From Phycisphaerae bacterium (GTDB taxonomy: Bacteria > Planctomycetota > Phycisphaerae > SM23-33): a stretch of 64,000 bases of DNA. Both the position numbers and the translations under genes were made by a program. The notes beneath the pieces were generated by a model. It worked only from the letters and a program-made list of their open reading frames with translations. It was not told the DNA's origin and did no database searches. The stretch lies in assembly GCA_011050235.1 (NCBI GenBank), contig DRGC01000032.1:30042-94041 (forward strand), in the 5' to 3' direction. Each line of letters starts with the position of its first letter. Positions within the stretch are counted from its first letter, which is position 1. Positions 1 to 44,561 of this stretch are shown one piece after another.

Positions 1-103
1 TTGGCCCAAAGCCTCGTACATTGCTTGAGTCACTGTGGTCTGAAATCGAAGAAAGCCTGTATCCCTCTTGAGATCGCTGATCTTCTCGAATAAGCGCATC
101 ATG
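1..103 (-). CDS. 5' end of a small ORF running off the left window edge (hypothetical)
   Basis: An ATGATG start at 98..103 on the minus strand is in frame to the window edge (MMRLFEKISDLKRDTGFLRFQTTVTQAMYEALGQ...). It sits in the low-GC island downstream of the peptidase gene. Partial. Confidence 0.3.
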
Positions 104-187
104 ATGGGTCTTTCTCCTTCTCTTTCTGCCGAACGCTTTGCCGCTCAACGGGAGGGAAGTCCGTAGAGCGGCCGGTCGAGCGCCTGG

Positions 188-958
188 TTAGAAGCTTTCT
201 ATCAATTCGTGAACATAATACGAAGGTGTTACCATGGCTATTTTCCCCCCAGTCTTGTCTGAGATAGTGCCATGCATAACGCCATAGAAACATGTACCAT
301 TCCCCGTCGTTGTCATTGAGCCTGCCTTGAAAACGGACAGATCAACGATTGGACAACCACTATATCCTCCAACGGAAGGGTTCTCTAAAGCAAAGAAAGT
401 CTGTGGTGTCCTGGTGTCACCCCTAGGCAATGTTAGAAAGCCACTGGAAGCCTTTGATTCAAATGTAAGGGGACTAAAGTATCCTTGAGTACCTAATCCC
501 AGCGGGAATCCAATTGATGTCAGAATTAGTTCTCTGGCTGGCGCTGACTTCTCTTCAGAAAAGAATTCTAACGGAAGAAATCTGTTTTTCAGGGAAGCCC
601 CTGTTTGTGAATCCTGTGGGAACAGTTCAAATGCAGCCAAATCAGCTTCACTATGAGCTTTCCAGTCTAAGGAGGACTTTTCCACCAGCTTCTTAATAGG
701 AATCGTAAGCGGCCTATCGTCGTCGTCCTTAACAACAATATTGTCATTGATGGATATGTCATCAGCAACATGCTTTGCTGTTAAGACAAATGGCCGATCA
801 CTGCAAGCAACAAGAGTTCCTGTTCCACCTATATCGCTACTACAAACTTGGTCTCTCAGATTAACTACCATTCTAGCGATCAGTTCAAGAGGCAGTATGT
901 TACCCATCGTTCTCTTTCCAACAGTTGATCGAACGGAATTCCGTTGAGCCTTGGTCAC
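188..958 (-). CDS. trypsin-like serine peptidase (S1/Trypsin_2-like), no signal peptide
   Basis: All three catalytic-triad elements are present: His in TAKHV, Asp in DLAAFEL, and a GDSGGP-like GYSGCP serine motif. No N-terminal signal peptide. About 45% GC against about 67% elsewhere. The start may be the internal MGNIL. Confidence 0.6.
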   Translation of the reverse strand: MTKAQRNSVRSTVGKRTMGNILPLELIARMVVNLRDQVCSSDIGGTGTLVACSDRPFVLTAKHVADDISINDNIVVKDDDDRPLTIPIKKLVEKSSLDWKAHSEADLAAFELFPQDSQTGASLKNRFLPLEFFSEEKSAPARELILTSIGFPLGLGTQGYFSPLTFESKASSGFLTLPRGDTRTPQTFFALENPSVGGYSGCPIVDLSVFKAGSMTTTGNGTCFYGVMHGTISDKTGGKIAMVTPSYYVHELIESF

Positions 959-1097
959 GGGCCAGGCTATGCAGGATTCAGCATAACAAGGATATGGCCA
1001 TGCTCAACGGAAAAAGAAAACGTCCTGCCGACCCGACTCTTGGGCAGACCGGCGGGCCGGCTGATGGGCCTGCCCGCCGTAGGCGGGTGTGAGAGTT

Positions 1098-1970
1098 TCA
1101 GGCGTGGTCGGCGCGGAGTAGGGCTTGGTCGGTGGCGTGTTGGCGGAGGGTGGAGAGGTCGGCGGCGGCTGGGGTGTGGGTCAGGTCGGGGAACTCGTTG
1201 GCTCGAAAGCATGGGCGGTATTGGCCCATGATGTTGATCGCGCAGCCGGGGGCGGCTTGGGCGACGGTGTCGATGACGCCGCGGCTGTTGGCGAGATCGT
1301 TGGGCATGACGAGGTGCCGGACCAGAACCCCCCGGGTCGCAACACCGCGCCGGTCGGTCTGCAGCTTGCCCGTCTGCCGATACATCTCAGCCAGGGCGGC
1401 GGCGGCGACGGCCGGGTAGTCGCTCACGCCCGAGTACGTCCGCCCGCGGGCGGGGTCGGCCCATTTGAAGTCCGGCATGTAGATCTCGATCAGCCCGGCC
1501 AGCAGCTCCAGCGTCTCGACCCGCTCATAGCCGCCGCAGTTGTAGACGACGGGCACGCTCAGCCCGCCCGAGCGGGCGATGGCGATCGCCTCGGCGACGG
1601 CGTGGGCGACGTGGGTGGGCGTCACGACGTTGACGTTCTCGCAGCCGTCGCGCTGAAGACCCAGCATCATCTCGGCCAACTGCTCGGCCGTCACCGCCCG
1701 GCCGCGGTCGCTGTGGCTGATGTCGGCGTTCTGGCAGAACACACAGTCGAGGTTGCAGCCGGCGAAAAAGATCGTCCCGCTGCCGCCGCGGCCGACCAGG
1801 ACGGCCTCTTCGCCGAAGTGCGCCCCCGCCGAAACCACGACCGCCCGCTCGCCGATGCGACACGCCCCCACCTGCCCGGCCGTCCGGTCCACGCCACACG
1901 CCCGCGGACACAGCCCGCAATCGCGGATAAGCTCCCGAAGCTGATGCACGTTGTCCGCCAAGGCAGGCAT
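1098..1970 (-). CDS. radical SAM protein, PflA/PflX-like (glycyl-radical activase / AmmeMemoRadiSam-type) family
   Basis: A CxxxCxxC cluster is embedded in AGCNLDCVFCQN, and the N-terminal CGLCPRAC motif is typical of this subgroup. About 290 aa. Confidence 0.7.
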   Translation of the reverse strand: MPALADNVHQLRELIRDCGLCPRACGVDRTAGQVGACRIGERAVVVSAGAHFGEEAVLVGRGGSGTIFFAGCNLDCVFCQNADISHSDRGRAVTAEQLAEMMLGLQRDGCENVNVVTPTHVAHAVAEAIAIARSGGLSVPVVYNCGGYERVETLELLAGLIEIYMPDFKWADPARGRTYSGVSDYPAVAAAALAEMYRQTGKLQTDRRGVATRGVLVRHLVMPNDLANSRGVIDTVAQAAPGCAINIMGQYRPCFRANEFPDLTHTPAAADLSTLRQHATDQALLRADHA

Positions 1971-2851: not shown

Positions 2852-2908
2852 GGCCGGGCGAGTGCGCCGGCGAGTTGGGGCAATATCTCGGTCGACAATA
2901 CCAACCGG
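2852..2908 (+). repeat. ~57-nt dispersed repeat, copy 1 (upstream of PEP-CTERM gene)
   Basis: The core GCGCCGGCGAGTTGGGGCAATATCTCGGTCGACAATACCAACCGG matches 3904..3948 at 43 of 45 positions. GGCCGGGCGAG lies upstream in both copies. Confidence 0.8.
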
Positions 2909-3209
2909 TGGGTGGCGGCGAAGGACACCATGAGGATGACGCATCCTGCCAAGAGTCTTGCCAAGAACGATGTTTTTTGATTGAACCCCCCCCGAATTTG
3001 AAGTAAACTACGCGTGTTGTGTAGAAACCAGCAGGCAATTCCTCGTGCTTTTGACAGAAACACTTCTGTTCCACTCGAGGAAGAGGAGGAGGCCATCTTG
3101 TGGAGGGCAAGCAAGAGAACCGTGACGGTGGCCCGCTGTATGAAGAACATCCATTGCGATGCGAACTTGAGACGAAGCGTTTACCAATACCAAAGCGAGG
3201 AGAAGCACG

Positions 3210-3875
3210 ATGAAGACGATTCGGACCATTCTGCTTGGCTTGGCGCTAACCTGTGGGCTTTCGACCGTAGCTTTCGGCGCCACGTTCGTTCAGACAACCC
3301 CGTACTTTAGCGCCGGTGACAGCCCGTTCAACACGGCGGCGCCCGGGTACCAAATCGAAGACTTCGAGGACTTGACCTTGAACACCCTCGGCATTCTTTC
3401 GTGGAGCACCTCCTTTGGCTCAGGGATATCTACGTTCTCGGTCGATGCTGATGACGGCGTCATCGACGGGTCAGGGGCTGGGGGGAAGTCGCTGTCGGTT
3501 GTCACCAGTGCAGGGGTCACCGGGTTGTTTATCAACTTCGATAGTGTCACATTTGGGCAATTCCCACAGGACGTCGGCATTGTGGTCACCCTTGCCAGTG
3601 CATTTCCTCTGGTCATTGAGGCGTTCGACCCTCTGGGCTTCTCGCTGGGAACGACCACGGCAAACTTGGCCTTGTCATCGCCGACCGGCGATGATGTGTT
3701 CTTCGGCGTAACGGACGTCGGCGGGATTTCGAAGTTCCACGTCTACTCAAACAGCGCGGCCACGTTCCTCCATGTGGACCACCTGCAGTACGGCCCTATC
3801 CCCGAACCAGCCACGATGAGCCTGCTGGCCCTGGGCGGCCTGGCCTTGCTACGGCGCAAGTCGAAGACCCCCTAG
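3210..3875 (+). CDS. PEP-CTERM sorting-domain secreted protein
   Basis: N-terminal signal peptide. The C-terminus is PEPATMSLLALGGLALLRRKSK: a PEP motif, a TM helix and a basic tail. Confidence 0.7.
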   Translation: MKTIRTILLGLALTCGLSTVAFGATFVQTTPYFSAGDSPFNTAAPGYQIEDFEDLTLNTLGILSWSTSFGSGISTFSVDADDGVIDGSGAGGKSLSVVTSAGVTGLFINFDSVTFGQFPQDVGIVVTLASAFPLVIEAFDPLGFSLGTTTANLALSSPTGDDVFFGVTDVGGISKFHVYSNSAATFLHVDHLQYGPIPEPATMSLLALGGLALLRRKSKTP

Positions 3876-9538: not shown

Positions 9539-10726
9539 TTATCTCACCGTTAGAAAGTATTCCATTAGTTCGCACCCGGCCTTGATGTGGATGTCCGCCT
9601 TGGCGGCGGCCGCCTCGCTGAACGGCAGGTGCAGGACGCTCTTGACGCGCTCGCCGGCGACCACGAACGGCACGGCCGCATTGGTTCGCTGTCGCGATTT
9701 GCACACCGTCGAGCGGCTGGGCGCCACCAGCATGCGCCAGTGGCCTTGCTCGCCGCGCAGCCGGCGAATCGCGCCGCCGACCACATCGCGGTCGATGGCC
9801 TCGATCGCGGCGATCTTGCCGGTCACGTCGCCGGCCAGGGCGGCGTCATCGGGCCAACTAACGTGCACGCACACGATGTCGCAGGTATCGATGGCTTCGA
9901 CGGCCGCCTCGGCCAGGGCCGACAAATGCGTGTCCGTGTAGCCCTCGCCTGTGGGAATATCGATCACGTCCCACCCGACCAGCCGCCCGAGCCCGCGAAC
10001 AAGCGGATCGGTAGCCAGGATCGCCCCGCGACAGCCAAACCGCTCGGCGAACGGCTCGACCGGCTGGAGCACCCCTTCGCCCCACAGCCAGATGCCCGTG
10101 ATGGGGCTTTCGCCGAGTTCCCGGCGAATGGCGTTGATCTCGTGGCCCTTCAGCGCCTCGGCCGCCAGGGCCATGATCTCCTGCAGCCGCGAGGCATCGG
10201 GGCCCTTGGGGGCGCCGCGGCGGATCGCCTTGCCCACCACCTCGTAGGGGCACGTGGTCTGCACGTCCAGCGACTGGGCCGACGTCATCAGGTGCCGGTG
10301 TCCGCTGCCCACGTGGAACGTCAGTTGCCCGGGGGCCAACTGCTCGTTCAGCAGGCCGATCACGGCGACGGCTTCCTGGGGCGAAACGGTCCCGGCCGTT
10401 GCGTCGGTCAGCGACTTGCCCGCAACGGTCACCAGGTTGCATCGAAACACCTGCTCGCCGGTCGGCAGGTCCAACCCCAGCCCCAGCGCCTCCAGGGCCC
10501 CGCCGCCGAGGGCGAAGCTGCCCGGATCGTAGCCCAATAGCGCCATCAGCGCATCCTGCGGCACGTGCGGATGGCGCCGGTCGGTGAACCGGACGGTCCC
10601 GCATCGGCCCTGCACCGCCAGCCAATCCATGTTCGGCGTATCGGCCGCGGCCAGCGGCGTGGTGTGGGCCAGTTCGGCTATCGGCTGGTCGGCAGCGCCT
10701 TCGGGGATGACGATTACGTATTTCAT
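9539..10726 (-). CDS. cofactor-independent phosphoglycerate-mutase-like (ApgM/COG3635) protein; candidate non-orthologous homoserine kinase
   Basis: The N-terminus MKYVIVIPEGAADQP is typical of ApgM-family AlkP-superfamily enzymes. It lies immediately downstream of aspartokinase on the same strand, with a 2-nt gap. Confidence 0.65.
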   Translation of the reverse strand: MKYVIVIPEGAADQPIAELAHTTPLAAADTPNMDWLAVQGRCGTVRFTDRRHPHVPQDALMALLGYDPGSFALGGGALEALGLGLDLPTGEQVFRCNLVTVAGKSLTDATAGTVSPQEAVAVIGLLNEQLAPGQLTFHVGSGHRHLMTSAQSLDVQTTCPYEVVGKAIRRGAPKGPDASRLQEIMALAAEALKGHEINAIRRELGESPITGIWLWGEGVLQPVEPFAERFGCRGAILATDPLVRGLGRLVGWDVIDIPTGEGYTDTHLSALAEAAVEAIDTCDIVCVHVSWPDDAALAGDVTGKIAAIEAIDRDVVGGAIRRLRGEQGHWRMLVAPSRSTVCKSRQRTNAAVPFVVAGERVKSVLHLPFSEAAAAKADIHIKAGCELMEYFLTVR

Positions 10727-11745
10727 GGCTCGCGTGGCGAATCCTCATCCTCCGCCGCCGGTACGATCCACAGCGGCGAGGATGGTCCTTCGCTGGTCAG
10801 CACCAGCGTCTTGCCGTCGGCGTCATAGCAGATGCTCTCGCCCTGGCGACGACGTGGCAATTGTACACGCCCGCCGCCGCGGCGAAAGGCCCCAGCCCAA
10901 CTCTCTCCGTCACGACGGACATATTCGGTCGCATTGCCGTAGTCGGCCACGATCGCCCGCCGCCCATCCGGCGATATGTCCATGGCCGTGACCATCGGGA
11001 TCCAGGGACTTGCGATACGGACCGGCACATCGACCAGGCCCGGCAGCCTGAGCATACATCCGCTCAGCACGGCCTTCACGCGCCCGCGATGCGACGCCGG
11101 AGGCAGGGGCAAGATGTAGACCCCGCAAGGCCCCAGGACCGTCTTGCTGACCAGGCAAACGACGCCCGCGGAGACTTGGACGGGCATTGACGACGGGGCC
11201 ACGAGAGAGAAGCCGAATGGCCGGACGCTGGTCGTGTCCACGGCGACCGCCTCGCAGTCGCGGGGGCCGTCGGGATAGCGAAACTCGATGGTCGTCTGCA
11301 CCTCGGCCGAGAGTTCCCGGCCGACCTGGGCTGGATCGACAGCCGGTTCGGGCACGATGTACAGTTGGCAACGATCGCGCTGGGCGTTGTTGTCGCCAAC
11401 GTCGGCAATGAGAAGGTACGCCTGGCCGTGCAGTTCGTAGCTGGCGAGGTCCTCCCAATCGACGTTCTCGGCCCCGGTGATCGTGACGGTCGCCAGCGTT
11501 CGGCCTTGGCGGTCGATGGCGAACAACTGCGGCGGATCGCCCGAATCGTTGTGCGTCCAGAAGACCCCCGGCGTCCGCCGACTGACCGCCAGGCCGCTAC
11601 TTTCATGGATGCGGGGATCGGTCAGCGTCGCCTCGCGCCGGGCCGGCCCGTAGGCAACGCCCCCGGGCTGGGGCCCGCAGGCCCCGATCAGAGCGCCCGC
11701 GGCGACAGCCGCGAACAGTCGACAGATTGATCTGAGCCTTCTCAT
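10723..11745 (-). CDS. lipoprotein, possible beta-propeller (phytase-like/SdiA-regulated-like) family
   Basis: Start at MRRLRSICRLFAAVAAGALIGAC (lipobox). Motifs WTHNDSGD and ADVGDNN are present. The family assignment is weak. Confidence 0.45.
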   Translation of the reverse strand: MRRLRSICRLFAAVAAGALIGACGPQPGGVAYGPARREATLTDPRIHESSGLAVSRRTPGVFWTHNDSGDPPQLFAIDRQGRTLATVTITGAENVDWEDLASYELHGQAYLLIADVGDNNAQRDRCQLYIVPEPAVDPAQVGRELSAEVQTTIEFRYPDGPRDCEAVAVDTTSVRPFGFSLVAPSSMPVQVSAGVVCLVSKTVLGPCGVYILPLPPASHRGRVKAVLSGCMLRLPGLVDVPVRIASPWIPMVTAMDISPDGRRAIVADYGNATEYVRRDGESWAGAFRRGGGRVQLPRRRQGESICYDADGKTLVLTSEGPSSPLWIVPAAEDEDSPREP

Positions 11746-11762
11746 AGGATCGGTCCCGTGGG

Positions 11763-12524
11763 CTAGATGTCGAACGTCGCCATGACCGGCGCGTGGTCGG
11801 AGGGTTTTTCGCCTTTGCGTTCGTCGCGGTCGACCTCGGCGGCGCTGCAGCATCTCGCCAGCGGGTCGGTGGCGAGGATGTGGTCCAGCCGCAGTCCGTC
11901 GCCCTTGGGAAAGGCCAGACGGCGGTAGTCCCACCAGGAGTAGATGCGGCCGTCGGGGTGATGCTTTCGAAACACGTCGACCAGCGGCCAATCGAGCAGG
12001 CCCCGGAAGAGCTCCCTCACCCGGTCATGGCAGAGAACCGAGTCGGCCCATTCGTCCGGATGGGCGACGTCGCTGTCGTCGGGGGCGACGTTGAAATCCC
12101 CACAGACGGCCAGCAGATCGGTCGCCTTGGCGGTCTTGGCCAGCCAGGCGGCGAGGGTCTTGAGCCAATCCAGCTTGTAATCCCAGTGCTCGCAGCCGAC
12201 CTCTCGGCCGTTGGGGACGTAGACGTTGACGATCCGCACACCGTCGACCGTCGCGGCGATCAGGCGGGCGTGCTCGTCGTCGCCGAGGCCCTTGTGGATG
12301 TCCGTGGGCTCGGCGCGGCTGAGGATGGCCACGCCGTTGTAGGTCTTCTGGCCAAGGACGGCTGCGTGGTAGCCGGCCTGCTGGATCGCATCGAAGGGGA
12401 ATACGTCCTCAGCCCCTTTGAGCTCCTGCAGGCAGACGACGTCGGGCTTGTGGCGGGCCAGCAAGGCCAGTAGCCGCTCCAGCCGCGAGCGAATCGAATT
12501 GACGTTCCAGGTGACGAGCTTCAT
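11763..12524 (-). CDS. xthA: exodeoxyribonuclease III
   Basis: MKLVTWNVNSIRSRL...VVCLQELKG and the C-terminal SDHAPV motif are present. The ORF-track N-terminal extension is rejected. Confidence 0.8.
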   Translation of the reverse strand: MKLVTWNVNSIRSRLERLLALLARHKPDVVCLQELKGAEDVFPFDAIQQAGYHAAVLGQKTYNGVAILSRAEPTDIHKGLGDDEHARLIAATVDGVRIVNVYVPNGREVGCEHWDYKLDWLKTLAAWLAKTAKATDLLAVCGDFNVAPDDSDVAHPDEWADSVLCHDRVRELFRGLLDWPLVDVFRKHHPDGRIYSWWDYRRLAFPKGDGLRLDHILATDPLARCCSAAEVDRDERKGEKPSDHAPVMATFDI

Positions 12525-12712
12525 GACCCGGCCATGGCCCAATCGACGTCGAACCGCGCCGAACAGCTCGGGCAAATCAGCACGATCCGAACTCCCCCGC
12601 TCTCGCGCCGCACGAACGAGACGTGAAATCCGTTGGTGTAGTCGCACTCGGGGCACGCCCGCAGTTCGTCAGCGATCTCAAGGCGTTTGGGTGTCTTCGC
12701 TTGGCTCATCAT
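12521..12712 (-). CDS. small zinc-ribbon protein (hypothetical)
   Basis: A 63-aa ORF has CPEC...CPSC zinc-ribbon pairs. A GGAAGGA Shine-Dalgarno sits upstream. Its stop overlaps the xthA start (ATGA). Its 5' end overlaps the 3' end of the upstream giant gene by about 35 nt. Confidence 0.45.
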   Translation of the reverse strand: MMSQAKTPKRLEIADELRACPECDYTNGFHVSFVRRESGGVRIVLICPSCSARFDVDWAMAGS

Positions 12713-42694: not shown

Positions 42695-43990
42695 TTACGC
42701 ACGCTTCCTTCGGTGCAGCAGCCCTACGGCGCCCAGGGCCAGCACAGTCAGCGTGGCCGGTTCGGGGACACCACCAGCGCCCGGTCCCGACGAGCCAAAG
42801 GCCTGCTTAAGAATCGCAAGGTCCGTGGCGTCGATAGTGCCGTCGCCGTTGGCATCGCCGAGCTCGAAGCCGGGCAGGATGGGCCGGCTGCCGTCCTCGG
42901 GGAAGTAGCCTCCGGTCCCGAAGTTCGCCTTCAGGATGGCCAGGTCCGTGCCGTTGACGGACATATCGCCGTTGAAGTCGGGGACGATTCGTATCACATC
43001 ATCCCCAACAAGCTCCGTGCCGTCAAGCAGCTGGCCGGTCAGTTCCAGATCGGTCATTCCCGGCAGGATTCCCAGCGACTGCGTCAAAAACTGCATGACC
43101 AAGTCATCGATCCCATCGTCATTCACGTCCTCGAAGTCGGCCTGCCATATGCCGTTGGAGTTCTGAACGACGTTGGCGTCGTTCAGCTCAACCGTCGACA
43201 CGTCGATGTCAGCCACGTCCAGGTCTTCGGTGCCGAAGATAACAACAGGCGTCTTGCCGATCGACTTGAGGTTGATGGGGTTCTCATCGCTGTCAGGCTT
43301 GATGTCTATGTCTATTGGTATGAACGGCGGCGGGACTTCGCCACCACCGGCATAGACAGCCCGACCGGGAATATCCGAGAACGCGAACTCATTCAACCCG
43401 ACGGCCCAGTACGCCGTCATGCTGATGTCCGCCCAGCCATAGAAGCGGTCGGCGCCGACATCGGCGTACAAGCCGATGGTGCCGCCACCGCCAAAGGGCC
43501 ACTCGCCATGGAACCAGAAGTACCAGCCGCCCAGGCCGCCCGTGTCAGTCACGGAATCATCGGACCAATTGCGACCACCAGCCAACGTGTCGCCGATTTC
43601 GTAGCCTCCGCCAAGCCTGCCGACGTTCCATACATTGCCGCCAGCGACGTAGCCTACGTTGGAATTGGTGCCGTCACCGACCTGAAGGGTCGTGGCGTCT
43701 TTCCGGTCATATCCATACCAATAGAAGTCCTGTTCCTGGAAGGTGAAACTGTCGGCATCCTGCCCTAACGACAGAAGTCCTGTGTTGGCGGTGTTCACCA
43801 CGACCGTCCCGTCCATCTTGAACGAGAGCATGTCCTGTCGCCAGTTGCTCGTGCCGTCCCACCAGCCCGCGCCGCCATTGTTGAAGACGTTCATGGCAGC
43901 GTTGGCGGGAACAGCCTGGGTGGCCAAAACGGCCGCACCAGCCGCCAGGGAGTAAGCTCCCAGCTTCTTTGCTAAATTGCCTTTTCTCAT
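42695..43990 (-). CDS. PEP-CTERM protein with dockerin-like Ca-binding repeats
   Basis: Signal peptide. Two DxNGDGxIDxxDLAILKxxFG repeats of dockerin/EF-hand type. The C-terminus is VPEPATLTVLALGAVGLLHRRKRA (PEP-CTERM). Confidence 0.65.
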   Translation of the reverse strand: MRKGNLAKKLGAYSLAAGAAVLATQAVPANAAMNVFNNGGAGWWDGTSNWRQDMLSFKMDGTVVVNTANTGLLSLGQDADSFTFQEQDFYWYGYDRKDATTLQVGDGTNSNVGYVAGGNVWNVGRLGGGYEIGDTLAGGRNWSDDSVTDTGGLGGWYFWFHGEWPFGGGGTIGLYADVGADRFYGWADISMTAYWAVGLNEFAFSDIPGRAVYAGGGEVPPPFIPIDIDIKPDSDENPINLKSIGKTPVVIFGTEDLDVADIDVSTVELNDANVVQNSNGIWQADFEDVNDDGIDDLVMQFLTQSLGILPGMTDLELTGQLLDGTELVGDDVIRIVPDFNGDMSVNGTDLAILKANFGTGGYFPEDGSRPILPGFELGDANGDGTIDATDLAILKQAFGSSGPGAGGVPEPATLTVLALGAVGLLHRRKRA

Positions 43991-44561
43991 AATCCTTCTC
44001 CTTCTCTGCGGATACGGGAAGGGGTTGTCTGATCAGAACAACGTACCCGAATCCTTAATAGTAACACTCTCGTTGTGATCTGCTCCTTCTGCCAATGACC
44101 ACCCGCGTGGCCACTCGACACTTCTTGCCCGCTACCTCATAGAAATGCTAAGCAAACGACAAGAAGGTAATGTTTCTGAGATCTGCGAAACAGCCACTCC
44201 ACGAGGCTGTCCTCTCGATTGAATAGATTAACACAAACTTGTACAGCGCGTCAAGCAATTAACCCGCGATCGGCAAAAAATTACACTGATTTACAAGACG
44301 ACGTATCTTATTGATGTATCAACCCTTATCGATCACCCCCCCCCTTCCCATGAACGCTTTTGGTGAGAAGAACCCGCCTTTTCCTTTAAGGTTTTCCTCT
44401 CAGACAGCTCAAACCGCGCCGCGAGCCCCGACACCCACTGACGCAGCCGCCGGCGGCCCGGCCGGGAATGAAACGGGCCCTTCGAACTCCGCGACAAAGC
44501 AACGCGGGCGGATGTGATCGCTCCGCGCCCGCTCGTATCGGTTTGTGAGTGTGCGATGAGT

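What the first reader, a model, noticed from the sequence alone, without database searches (positions are those of the whole stretch)
1..1090. Low-GC island at the window edge carrying a cytoplasmic trypsin-like peptidase
The first ~1 kb is about 45% GC against about 67% for the rest. The composition switches near 1000-1090, just past the terminator hairpin of the radical SAM gene. The island encodes an S1/Trypsin_2-like peptidase with an intact His/Asp/Ser triad but no signal peptide, plus the start of another small gene running off the window. Signal-less trypsin-like peptidases in compositionally foreign DNA are typical of horizontally acquired defence or abortive-infection modules. The partner genes would lie to the left of this window.
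Basis: partly seen in the sequence, partly recalled or inferred. Interest (0 to 1): 0.5.

Follow-up and report, generated by a model that had tools for sequence, protein, structure and literature searches.

The report
Foreign islet with orphan serine peptidase
The low-GC first kilobase is real: it is the edge of a 2.65-kb horizontally acquired islet in a Phycisphaerae genome that holds a stand-alone trypsin-fold peptidase, a nuclease-like gene and a known anti-phage RNase (RAZR), but nothing shows the peptidase works with its neighbours or is itself a defence gene.

Summary
Window 1-1000 is 46% GC against 64.5% for the rest (z = -6.2). The switch lies at about 1010-1020, just past the hairpins that follow the radical SAM gene.

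An identical 358-kb contig extends the window leftwards. The islet is 2.65 kb and sits between two core genes. It holds three genes:
- a 239-aa signal-less S1-fold peptidase (minus strand, 188-907; His46/Asp89/Ser183 invariant);
- a 333-aa protein with no Pfam match, whose family model has a restriction-endonuclease-like core;
- a full-length homologue of RAZR/PD-T7-4, a validated abortive-infection RNase.

The islet has no integrase and no tRNA.

The defence-island reading is therefore partly right, but the "partner genes" idea is not supported. No fetched locus outside this organism's own contigs holds both genes: 31 loci with the nuclease-like gene lack the peptidase, and 11 peptidase loci lack the nuclease-like gene. 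In a sister strain only an 864-bp peptidase cassette (window 158-1020) is shared, and its neighbours differ.

The peptidase family is unfused. About 69% of its representatives carry a signal-peptide-like N-terminus. Its contexts are only sometimes defence- or mobile-element-rich. The gene is under purifying selection (dN/dS 0.35).

Verdict: an ordinary accessory/defence islet with two uncharacterised candidate genes. Interest is modest.

The parts
1..1010 (.). Low-GC segment. It is the right-hand 1 kb of a 2.65-kb foreign islet, which spans L002 about 9900-12550 and extends about 1.65 kb beyond the left edge of the window.
   Evidence: GC is 0.464 here against 0.645 elsewhere, z = -6.2. L002 is 100% identical to window 1-1200.
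188..907 (-). CDS of a 239-aa stand-alone, signal-less serine peptidase with the S1/chymotrypsin fold. An alternative GTG start lies at 958.
   Evidence: ORF. P0001 is 100% identical. Trypsin_2 E = 5e-5. AlphaFold2 model: pLDDT 92.8, pTM 0.90. Foldseek against PDB finds S1 proteases with probability 1.0 and TM about 0.5-0.6. dN/dS against the sister strain is 0.35.
770..772 (-). Codon of catalytic His46 (motif LTAKHV)
   Evidence: Invariant in 59 homologues; coordinates.
641..643 (-). Codon of catalytic Asp89 (motif EADLA)
   Evidence: Invariant in 59 homologues; coordinates.
359..361 (-). Codon of catalytic Ser183 (motif GGYSGCP)
   Evidence: Invariant in 59 homologues; coordinates.
158..1020 (-). 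Discrete 864-bp peptidase cassette: 113 nt of leader, the CDS, and 30 nt of 3' tail. It is the only islet DNA shared with a sister strain.
   Evidence: blastn: L129 3742-4595 and L130 1091-1944 match L002 9888-10750 at 90.3%; the flanks differ.
941..1010 (-). A hairpin of about 70 nt in the 5' leader, closed by CCGTTGAGC (1010-1002) pairing with GCTCAACGG (949-941). The arms are conserved in the sister strain and the interior has diverged.
   Evidence: Fold: -41 kcal/mol, z = -4.9 in L002; same architecture but z = -0.9 in L129. Alignment.
932..945 (.). Perfect 14-nt palindrome AACGGAATTCCGTT between the hairpin and the RBS-like GGAAAGAG (912-919). Function unknown; it could be an operator.
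   Evidence: Read from the sequence. It has one mismatch in L129.
143..151 (-). Second copy of the 9-mer CCGTTGAGC. It lies 7 nt beyond the 3' end of the cassette homology, in the leader of the next gene.
   Evidence: The motif occurs 4 times in the window against 0.70 expected; 0 of 100 shuffles reach 4. It is absent at this place in L129 and L130.
1..102 (-). First 34 codons of a 333-aa gene ('g2') that runs off the window. Its family has no Pfam domain. The family model has a PD-(D/E)xK-like core and the gene recurs in defence islands.
1011..1085 (-). GC-rich hairpins plus a U-tract 3' of the radical SAM gene. This is a likely intrinsic terminator and marks the right border of the islet.
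   Evidence: Fold. Inverted repeat I11. Not detected by the consensus scan.
1098..1970 (-). Core flanking gene: a radical SAM enzyme resembling activating enzymes. GC 0.70, GC3 0.89.
   Evidence: Pfam Radical_SAM and Fer4_12. NCBIfam shows only sub-threshold activase-like matches. Composition.

Best explanation
Window 1 to about 1010 is the edge of a small (2.65 kb), horizontally acquired accessory islet. It lies in a cargo-swapping hotspot immediately downstream of a radical SAM gene in a Phycisphaerae (Planctomycetota) genome, and it ends at a yifB/comM-type Mg-chelatase gene.

The islet is a patchwork of three independently mobile single-gene units:
1. an 864-bp cassette encoding a 239-aa stand-alone serine peptidase;
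2. a 333-aa protein whose core resembles a PD-(D/E)xK nuclease;
3. a RAZR/PD-T7-4 zinc-finger-HEPN abortive-infection RNase, on the convergent strand.

Shown:
- The composition is foreign.
- The peptidase has a chymotrypsin fold with an invariant His-Asp-Ser triad, no export signal and no fused sensor domain.
- It is under purifying selection.
- It is inherited independently of its two neighbours.

Inferred (about 0.3-0.35 likely): in this signal-less form the enzyme acts alone in the cytoplasm as a narrow-specificity endopeptidase in a conflict or defence role. It would cleave a phage or mobile-element protein, or a host protein once infection supplies the trigger or substrate. With no sensor domain, its substrate specificity would be the only safeguard.

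It is about equally possible that it is a non-defence accessory protease that merely shares the hotspot.
For: Foreign origin:
- GC is 0.44 and GC3 0.38 for the peptidase, against host GC3 of 0.83-0.93 for 11 of 12 genes (0.75 for the PEP-CTERM gene). The two neighbours have GC3 of 0.59 and 0.55, different from the peptidase, which suggests separate origins.
- Peptidase homologues match host GC in low-GC hosts (31-39%) but are 21 and 10 points below it here and in L036.

Islet content.

RAZR homologue:
- PADLOC PD-T7-4 E = 2.6e-87 over profile positions 2-208 of 211.
- CPAC/CEHC zinc ribbon and R151-x7-H159, the same spacing as the R146/H154 shown to be essential in E. coli (PMC13017515).

Peptidase:
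- Confident model, S1 fold, invariant triad.
- All of the 150 best family representatives are at most 366 aa, so none is fused to a sensor.
- dN/dS is 0.35 and dS 0.15, against 0.40 and 0.10 for the flanking core gene.

Independence from the neighbours:
- A profile search finds both genes only in this organism's own contigs (L001-L006). 31 other g2 loci lack the peptidase and 11 other peptidase loci lack g2.
- The sister strain shares rSAM (94.8% identity) and the cassette (90.3%), with different cargo on both sides.

Context hints of a conflict role:
- This islet itself.
- The P0022 locus: AbiJ, pP_pnuc, VspR, a helicase, an integrase and IS91.
- The P0009 locus: HigB/HTH and HicAB pairs.
- The P0077 locus: between resolvase genes, with an integrase and VapE.
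- The protease domain's best PADLOC matches are defence-associated trypsin domains: LmuA in 49 of 59 members, retron type XI RT-protease in 30 of 59, and candidate PDC-S45 in 32 of 59.
Against: - About 69% of non-fragment family representatives (98 of 142) carry a signal-peptide-like N-terminal extension. So do the five closest non-identical homologues, so the family as a whole looks mainly exported.
- In five of nine distinct contexts, no recognised defence or mobile-element gene lies next to the peptidase. Ten unknown neighbours gave no PADLOC hit.
- This protein's only PADLOC hit is weak and partial: LmuA positions 5-71 of 425, E = 3e-6.
- No homologue was found in phage or plasmid records or in IMG/VR.
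- No integrase, tRNA or convincing att repeats define how the islet arrived.
- No empty site was found. Metagenomic rSAM relatives are at most 74% identical and not syntenic.
- An unregulated cytoplasmic protease with no sensor or inhibitor is an awkward defence design.
Confidence: 0.6

Rival explanations
1. The peptidase and the downstream nuclease-like gene form a two-gene protease/pro-nuclease defence system, analogous to the trypsin-MBL modules. On infection the protease would cleave and unmask the nuclease.
For: - Same strand, 85-nt gap, peptidase first.
- Both leaders contain GAAAGAGAA(C/G)GA and CCGTTGAGC.
- g2 has a PD-(D/E)xK-like core with invariant D90...Q112-x-K114 and two low-confidence loops that could act as gates.
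- Protease-activated nucleases are an established defence logic (PMC12799240; 10.1101/2025.09.03.673762).
Against: - No co-occurrence outside this organism: 0 of 31 g2 loci and 0 of 11 peptidase loci hold the other gene.
- The sister strain keeps the cassette but has a two-TM protein downstream instead of g2.
- GC3 differs, 0.38 against 0.59.
- In the known modules the protease is fused to a sensor and the nuclease is MBL-fold and encoded upstream. Neither holds here (PMC12799240).
Confidence: 0.07
2. The peptidase is an ordinary accessory protease with no role in defence (for example protein turnover, processing or nutrition). It belongs to a mostly exported family and happens to sit in a recombination hotspot that also collects defence genes.
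For: - 69% of family representatives have signal-peptide-like N-termini.
- Several homologues sit among housekeeping or unknown genes.
- No PADLOC hits for the neighbours.
- No defence-model membership.
- Purifying selection similar to a core gene.
Against: - This copy and about a quarter of the family lack any export signal.
- Distribution is sporadic, with gene GC below host GC.
- The gene recurs beside Abi, toxin-antitoxin and mobile-element genes.
- It is carried as a self-contained cassette.
Confidence: 0.3
3. The gene is a decaying remnant of a secreted protease that lost its signal peptide on transfer and is no longer functional.
For: - The nearest non-identical homologues (66-73% identity) carry signal peptides while this one does not.
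- The Pfam score is below the gathering threshold.
Against: - The ORF is intact and the triad and 30 other family-invariant residues are retained.
- dN/dS is 0.35 against an 89%-identical orthologue that also lacks a signal peptide.
- Many signal-less relatives exist in other phyla.
Confidence: 0.03

Closest known systems
Peptidase family S1 (PA clan), Pfam Trypsin_2 (PF13365). The closest solved folds are the MamO protease domain (5hma), Rv3671c/MarP (3lt3) and DegS without its PDZ domain (2qf0).
   Same: Double beta-barrel chymotrypsin fold, His-Asp-Ser order, GxSGxP serine motif. 54 of 59 family members match Trypsin_2.
   Different: - Only 12-18% identity to the 50 best structural matches, with TM about 0.5-0.6.
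- The family profile finds nothing in PDB by sequence (best E = 0.8).
- This protein scores below the Pfam gathering threshold.
- No PDZ domain.
- It has an extra invariant C-terminal motif, HGT.SD.TGGK...TP.
Trypsin-MBL / nuclease-protease defence modules (Hachiman HamMAB, Avs2, Lamassu, DRT)
   Same: A trypsin-like protease encoded next to a predicted nuclease in a defence neighbourhood. The protease domain's best PADLOC match is the N-terminal trypsin domain of an LmuA model.
   Different: - In those systems the protease is fused to the sensor protein and the nuclease is an MBL-fold proenzyme encoded upstream (PMC12799240).
- Here the protease is a bare 239-aa protein.
- The neighbour is PD-(D/E)xK-like and lies downstream.
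- The two genes do not co-occur elsewhere.
RAZR / PD-T7-4 (applies to the third islet gene, just left of the window)
   Same: Full-length HMM match, Cys4 zinc ribbon, and a DUF4145/HEPN domain with an R-x7-H motif (PMC13017515).
   Different: It is a planctomycete homologue that has not been tested. Its triggers (portal or Gp77-like rings in E. coli phages) are unknown here.
PADLOC candidate PDC-S45 and retron type XI RT-protease
   Same: Weak domain-level similarity for many family members (best E = 4.7e-11 and 3.5e-9). The alignment covers up to positions 11-248 of the 293-position PDC-S45 profile.
   Different: The window protein itself does not reach E = 1e-3 for either. PDC-S45 is only an unvalidated candidate (PMC12429752). 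No reverse transcriptase is present.
PD-(D/E)xK nucleases: RecU, Hjc and type II restriction endonucleases (applies to g2)
   Different: Gln replaces the usual Asp/Glu. There are large N- and C-terminal additions. Foldseek and sequence searches find nothing significant. No Pfam or PADLOC family matches.

Membership tests
Peptidase S1 / PA clan | Chymotrypsin-type double beta-barrel fold | tested here: met
   AlphaFold2 model pLDDT 92.8, pTM 0.90. Foldseek against PDB: 626 matches at E <= 1e-3; all 50 listed are S1 proteases, with probability 1.0.
Peptidase S1 / PA clan | Catalytic triad in the order His, Asp, Ser | tested here: met
   H46, D89 and S183 are invariant in 59 sequences.
Peptidase S1 / PA clan | Score above the Pfam gathering threshold for Trypsin_2 or Trypsin | tested here: not met
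   24.5-24.8 bits against a cut-off of 27.6. The family as a whole does match: 54 of 59 members at E <= 1e-3.
HtrA/DegP housekeeping proteases (S1C) | C-terminal PDZ domain(s) | tested here: not met
   The protein is 239 aa and its only Pfam hits are Trypsin_2 and Trypsin.
HtrA/DegP housekeeping proteases (S1C) | Export signal or periplasmic location | tested here: not met
   No hydrophobic N-terminus; an in-frame stop lies 17 codons upstream of the ATG.
HtrA/DegP housekeeping proteases (S1C) | Match to curated HtrA/DegP/DegQ/DegS family models | tested here: not met
   No NCBIfam family at E <= 1.
Trypsin-MBL / nuclease-protease defence module | Protease fused to a sensor (HamA, Avs, LmuA, DRT) | tested here: not met
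   Stand-alone 239-aa protein. The best 150 of 841 family representatives are all at most 366 aa.
Trypsin-MBL / nuclease-protease defence module | Adjacent MBL-fold pro-nuclease gene | tested here: not met
   The neighbour has no Lactamase_B match, and its family model resembles PD-(D/E)xK nucleases.
Trypsin-MBL / nuclease-protease defence module | Co-occurrence or co-evolution of the protease and the nuclease | tested here: not met
   0 of 31 g2 loci and 0 of 11 peptidase loci hold the other gene. The sister strain lacks g2 next to the cassette.
Lamassu (LmuA protease type) | Full-length LmuA match and an LmuB SMC-type ATPase neighbour | tested here: not met
   The match covers only profile positions 5-71 of 425. 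No gene with an SMC-type domain is annotated within 10 kb.
RAZR / PD-T7-4 (neighbouring gene, outside the window) | Full-length family HMM match | tested here: met
   PDLC04109: E = 2.6e-87, positions 2-208 of 211.
RAZR / PD-T7-4 (neighbouring gene, outside the window) | N-terminal Cys4 zinc ribbon, and a HEPN Arg and His with the spacing found in E. coli RAZR | tested here: met
   C17xxC20, C54xxC57 and R151-x7-H159, against R146/H154 in E. coli (PMC13017515).
RAZR / PD-T7-4 (neighbouring gene, outside the window) | Abortive-infection phage defence activated by phage ring proteins | not testable with these tools
   Needs experiments.
PD-(D/E)xK nuclease superfamily (g2) | Restriction-endonuclease-like alpha/beta core | tested here: inconclusive
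PD-(D/E)xK nuclease superfamily (g2) | Catalytic D...(D/E)xK motif | tested here: inconclusive
   D90...Q112-x-K114 and E42 are invariant and sit on the expected secondary-structure elements, but Gln replaces Asp/Glu.
Integron gene cassette | 3' attC site (RYYYAAC...GTTRRRY) and an IntI integrase nearby | tested here: not met
   The hairpin lies 5' of the ORF and its boxes are in the opposite order, GTTGAGC...GCTCAAC. No integrase is present in 20 kb.
Classical genomic island | Atypical composition | tested here: met
Classical genomic island | Integrase, tRNA target and flanking att direct repeats | tested here: not met
   No tRNA, no integrase, and only short repeats at chance level apart from the 9-mer noted under parts.
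Classical genomic island | Variable presence among close relatives | tested here: met
   In the sister strain the rSAM 3' flank carries different cargo, and only the peptidase cassette is shared. No empty site was recovered.

The most novel reading that the evidence does not exclude
The signal-less clade of this otherwise exported S1 family could be a previously unrecognised single-gene, sensor-less anti-phage or anti-mobile-element protease. It would be carried on a self-contained cassette of about 0.86 kb that moves into hotspots through a short core sequence (CCGTTGAGC). Its neighbour g2 could represent a new family of stand-alone PD-(D/E)xK defence nucleases.
Probability: 0.2. Interest if true: 0.6.

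Novelty: new member of a known kind. Interest (0 to 1): 0.33.

Why it matters
If the peptidase defends the cell by itself, it would be a minimal protease-only immune gene. That would differ from the known trypsin-like defence proteases, which are fused to sensors and act by unmasking a nuclease. The g2 family has no annotation, spans many phyla including archaea, and recurs beside TIR, HerA, restriction-modification and RAZR genes. It is a reasonable candidate for a new defence nuclease. Otherwise this is a routine case of a small cargo-swapping hotspot in a planctomycete genome, and it adds a Phycisphaerae homologue to the RAZR family.

Tried and rejected
- Exact look-up of the 256-aa GTG-start form found nothing. 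The 239-aa ATG form is the one on record.
- Empty-site test. 80 metagenomic loci with rSAM relatives were at most 74% identical, and none had the Mg-chelatase or DUF502 gene nearby, so no empty site could be shown.
- Phage or plasmid origin. tblastn of the peptidase found nothing in 50,697 phage records or 72,556 plasmid records, and the family-pattern scan found nothing in IMG/VR. g2 gave one distant IMG/VR hit.
- A conserved partner for g2. Neighbour clustering over 30 loci found none.
- PADLOC on ten unknown neighbours of peptidase homologues gave no hits.
- Sequence-profile searches of both families against PDB found nothing significant. Foldseek of the g2 model against PDB also found nothing.
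- Integron attC reading of the leader hairpin was rejected because the box order is reversed and there is no integrase.
- Homology between the peptidase leader and the g2 leader as a whole is not significant (score 49.4 against shuffles of 38.1 +/- 4.9, maximum 54.5).
- Rfam and tRNA scans of the window found nothing.
- The sigma-70 promoter scan found no site in the leader, and the terminator scan found none after rSAM.
- The other GC dip in the window (about 43.3-44.5 kb) is mild and largely intergenic, so it is not a second islet of this kind.
Full report
**1. Observation**

The first kilobase is the only strongly deviant segment of the window.
- Window 1-1000 is 46.4% GC and the remaining 63 kb is 64.5%. 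The other 1-kb windows have mean 0.645, sd 0.029 and minimum 0.55, which puts the first kb at z = -6.2.
- In 200-nt steps GC climbs from 0.465 (801-1000) to 0.68 (1001-1200).
- The switch coincides with GC-rich hairpins and a U-tract that follow the stop codon of the radical SAM gene (1098-1970, minus strand). The fold has z = -4.4, although the consensus terminator scan did not flag them.
- The milder dip near 43.3-44.5 kb is largely intergenic.

**2. The gene**

The peptidase ORF is on the minus strand, 188-958 from a GTG or 188-907 from an ATG.
- The ATG form (239 aa) is the one in public databases (P0001, 100% identical). It aligns with the starts of homologues and has GGAAAGAG 5 nt upstream.
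- Pfam Trypsin_2 matches at E = 5e-5 and 24.5 bits, under the 27.6-bit gathering score. NCBIfam finds nothing.
- In an alignment of 59 homologues, His46, Asp89 and Ser183 (GGYSGCP) are invariant. So is an unusual C-terminal motif, HGT.SD.TGGK...TP.
- The AlphaFold2 model is confident (pLDDT 92.8, pTM 0.90). Foldseek matches it only to S1 proteases: MamO, factor XII, uPA, MarP and DegS, with TM about 0.5-0.6 and 12-18% identity.
- A family profile finds no solved relative by sequence.
- There is no PDZ domain and no hydrophobic N-terminus. An in-frame stop 17 codons upstream of the ATG excludes a hidden signal peptide.

**3. Extending the window**

P0001 is encoded on six public contigs. One of them, L002 (358.6 kb), is 100% identical to window 1-1200. 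Source names assign the proteins to a Phycisphaerae bacterium from marine sediment. Coordinates convert as L002 position = 10908 minus window position.

Gene order, in L002 orientation:
- radical SAM (+)
- peptidase (+, 10001-10720)
- a 333-aa gene, 'g2' (+, 10806-11807)
- a 213-aa DUF4145 gene (-, 11884-12525)
- a 529-aa Mg-chelatase/YifB-type gene (-)

Low GC runs from about 9900 to 12550, that is 2.65 kb.

| Gene | GC3 |
|---|---|
| peptidase | 0.38 |
| g2 | 0.59 |
| DUF4145 gene | 0.55 |
| 11 of 12 flanking host genes | 0.83-0.93 |
| PEP-CTERM gene | 0.75 |

No tRNA, integrase or sizeable flanking repeat is present.

**4. The neighbours**

The DUF4145 gene:
- It is a full-length match to PADLOC PD-T7-4 (E = 2.6e-87, positions 2-208 of 211).
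- PD-T7-4 has been renamed RAZR. It is a zinc-finger-HEPN RNase that defends by abortive infection. It is activated by assembling around phage portal or Gp77 rings, with essential residues R146 and H154 (PMC13017515).
- The homologue here has CPAC and CEHC pairs and R151-x7-H159.

g2:
- It has no Pfam, PADLOC or PHROG match.
- It belongs to a family of at least 193 proteins, the 120 listed mostly about 330 aa, from many bacterial phyla and some archaea.
- E42, D90 and Q112-x-K114 are invariant and sit where a PD-(D/E)xK site would be.
- Five of ten immediately upstream genes in other genomes are defence genes: HerA, TIR-TM, a GmrSD/HNH enzyme, an m5C methylase and PDC-S35/TIR.
- One more homologue lies between a type IIG restriction-modification enzyme and a TIR protein.
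- g2 is below distal-flank GC in 22 of 26 loci.
- g2 is therefore a plausible stand-alone defence nuclease, but this has not been tested.

**5. Is the peptidase part of a system?**

No evidence says so.
- tblastn and profile searches find the peptidase and g2 together only in this organism's own contigs. 31 other g2 loci lack the peptidase and 11 other peptidase loci lack g2.
- g2 has no conserved neighbour of any kind.
- The most telling comparison is a sister strain (L129-L131), whose peptidase is 89% identical. L129 shares the 3' end of rSAM (94.8% nucleotide identity) and then only L002 9888-10750 (90.3%). That shared piece is an 864-bp unit running from 113 nt upstream of the ATG to 30 nt past the stop (window 158-1020).
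- Between rSAM and the cassette, L129 carries 3.3 kb of different cargo. Downstream it has a 235-aa two-TM protein, not g2.
- The rSAM 3' flank is therefore a hotspot with changing cargo, and the peptidase is a self-contained cassette.
- Between the two strains dN/dS is 0.35 (dS 0.15), similar to the rSAM fragment (0.40, dS 0.10). The gene is functional and probably predates the strain split.

**6. The family**

An exhaustive profile search finds 841 representative clusters (482 at E <= 1e-10).
- The best 150 are all at most 366 aa, so the domain is never fused to a sensor among them.
- Of 142 non-fragment representatives, 98 (69%) have an N-terminal extension with a signal-peptide-like hydrophobic stretch, and 37 have none.
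- Among the 120 closest proteins the figure is 31, including the five nearest non-identical homologues.
- A few signal-less members end in a SEC-C zinc motif.
- Contexts of signal-less homologues are mixed:
  - a lone insertion between gshB and a Wzz-like gene;
  - an island with an integrase, IS91, AbiJ, pP_pnuc, VspR and a helicase;
  - next to HigB/HTH and HicAB pairs;
  - among unknown or housekeeping genes.
- A further homologue with a short N-terminal extension (P0077) lies between resolvase genes, with an integrase and VapE.
- Ten unknown neighbours have no PADLOC match.
- No homologue occurs in phage or plasmid records or in IMG/VR.
- Homologues have host-like GC in low-GC hosts but are 21 points below host GC here, which suggests a low-GC donor.
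- At domain level, the best PADLOC matches of family members are defence-associated trypsin domains: LmuA in 49 of 59, retron XI RT-protease in 30 of 59, and candidate PDC-S45 in 32 of 59. These matches are weak, and the window protein reaches only the LmuA N-terminus.

**7. Comparison with known systems**

The described nuclease-protease defence modules pair an MBL-fold pro-nuclease, encoded separately and usually upstream, with a trypsin-like protease fused to HamA, Avs, LmuA or DRT (PMC12799240; 10.1101/2025.09.03.673762). Here the protease is unfused, the neighbour is not MBL-fold, it lies downstream, and it does not co-occur with the protease. The locus is not a member of that kind. It is not HtrA-like either. 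The leader hairpin is not an integron attC: its boxes are in the reverse order, it lies 5' of the ORF, and there is no IntI.

**8. Conclusion**

The compositional observation is correct, and its horizontal-transfer reading is well supported. A validated defence gene does lie just left of the window, and the middle gene looks like a defence nuclease. The peptidase is an active-looking, cytoplasmic, stand-alone S1 enzyme on its own small cassette. Its function remains inferred.
- I put about 0.3-0.35 on a solitary conflict or defence protease.
- I put about 0.3 on a non-defence accessory protease.
- I put less than 0.1 on a protease-nuclease pair with g2.

As a finding it is a typical small accessory/defence hotspot with two uncharacterised candidates.

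Noticed in passing
L002 11884-12525 (minus strand in L002); about 1.0-1.6 kb beyond the left edge of the window: Full-length homologue of the anti-phage RNase RAZR/PD-T7-4 in a Phycisphaerae genome. It has a CPAC/CEHC zinc ribbon and R151-x7-H159.
   Followed up: yes
window 1-102 (minus strand), continuing as L002 10806-11807; related loci L007-L035 and L126: The 333-aa g2 family has no Pfam or PADLOC model, spans many phyla including archaea, and has a PD-(D/E)xK-like core with invariant D...QxK. It recurs next to HerA, TIR, restriction-modification and RAZR genes, so it is a candidate new defence nuclease.
   Followed up: partly
window 1002-1010, 941-949 and 143-151: The 9-mer CCGTTGAGC opens the peptidase cassette and pairs with its complement to close a hairpin of about 70 nt. 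It recurs 7 nt past the 3' end of the cassette. The window has 4 copies against 0.7 expected. The second bracket copy is missing in the sister strain. It could be a recombination core, or it could be chance.
   Followed up: partly
window 932-945: Perfect palindrome AACGGAATTCCGTT between the leader hairpin and the ribosome-binding region of the peptidase gene. It has one mismatch in the sister strain. It could be an operator.
   Followed up: no
protein family of window 188-907 (P0002-P0120, P0247-P0393): The same peptidase family occurs with and without signal peptides, even among close relatives (66-73% identity). A few signal-less members carry a C-terminal SEC-C zinc motif. Several signal-peptide forms have a Met or Val codon at the position of the signal-less start, which hints at possible dual starts.
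   Followed up: partly
L129 461-3741 and L130 1961-2668: In the sister strain the rSAM 3' flank carries other cargo: 136-aa and 206-aa unknown proteins, a UbiE-type methyltransferase and DUF6868. A 235-aa two-TM protein follows the peptidase. All are below host GC.
   Followed up: no
L011 2368-5483 and L016 9230-12162: The same two-gene pair (an unidentified 390-410-aa protein plus HerA, PADLOC E = 2e-140) lies next to g2 in two unrelated genomes, upstream in one and downstream in the other. Different defence cassettes appear to shuffle around g2.
   Followed up: no
L034 6893-7954: An m5C DNA methylase lies directly upstream of the most divergent g2 homologue (30% identity), and its ORF overlaps the longest g2 ORF. 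The arrangement resembles a restriction-modification pair.
   Followed up: no
window 3210-3875 and 1971-2090, 2900-3200: A PEP-CTERM-anchored protein (C-terminal ...PEPATMSLLALGGLALLRRKSK) has lower GC (0.59) than its neighbours. It is flanked by AT-richer intergenic stretches (GC about 0.50).
   Followed up: no
window 43300-44500: This is the second-lowest GC region of the window (0.48-0.60), and largely intergenic (43990-44560). The adjacent 431-aa ORF (42695-43990, minus strand) has a weak dockerin-like C-terminal match (E = 4e-4).
   Followed up: partly
window about 1823 (rSAM codon 50) compared with L002: The window's radical SAM protein differs from the L002 copy by one residue (Ala against Gly at position 50). 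The window therefore comes from a slightly different assembly of the same population.
   Followed up: no
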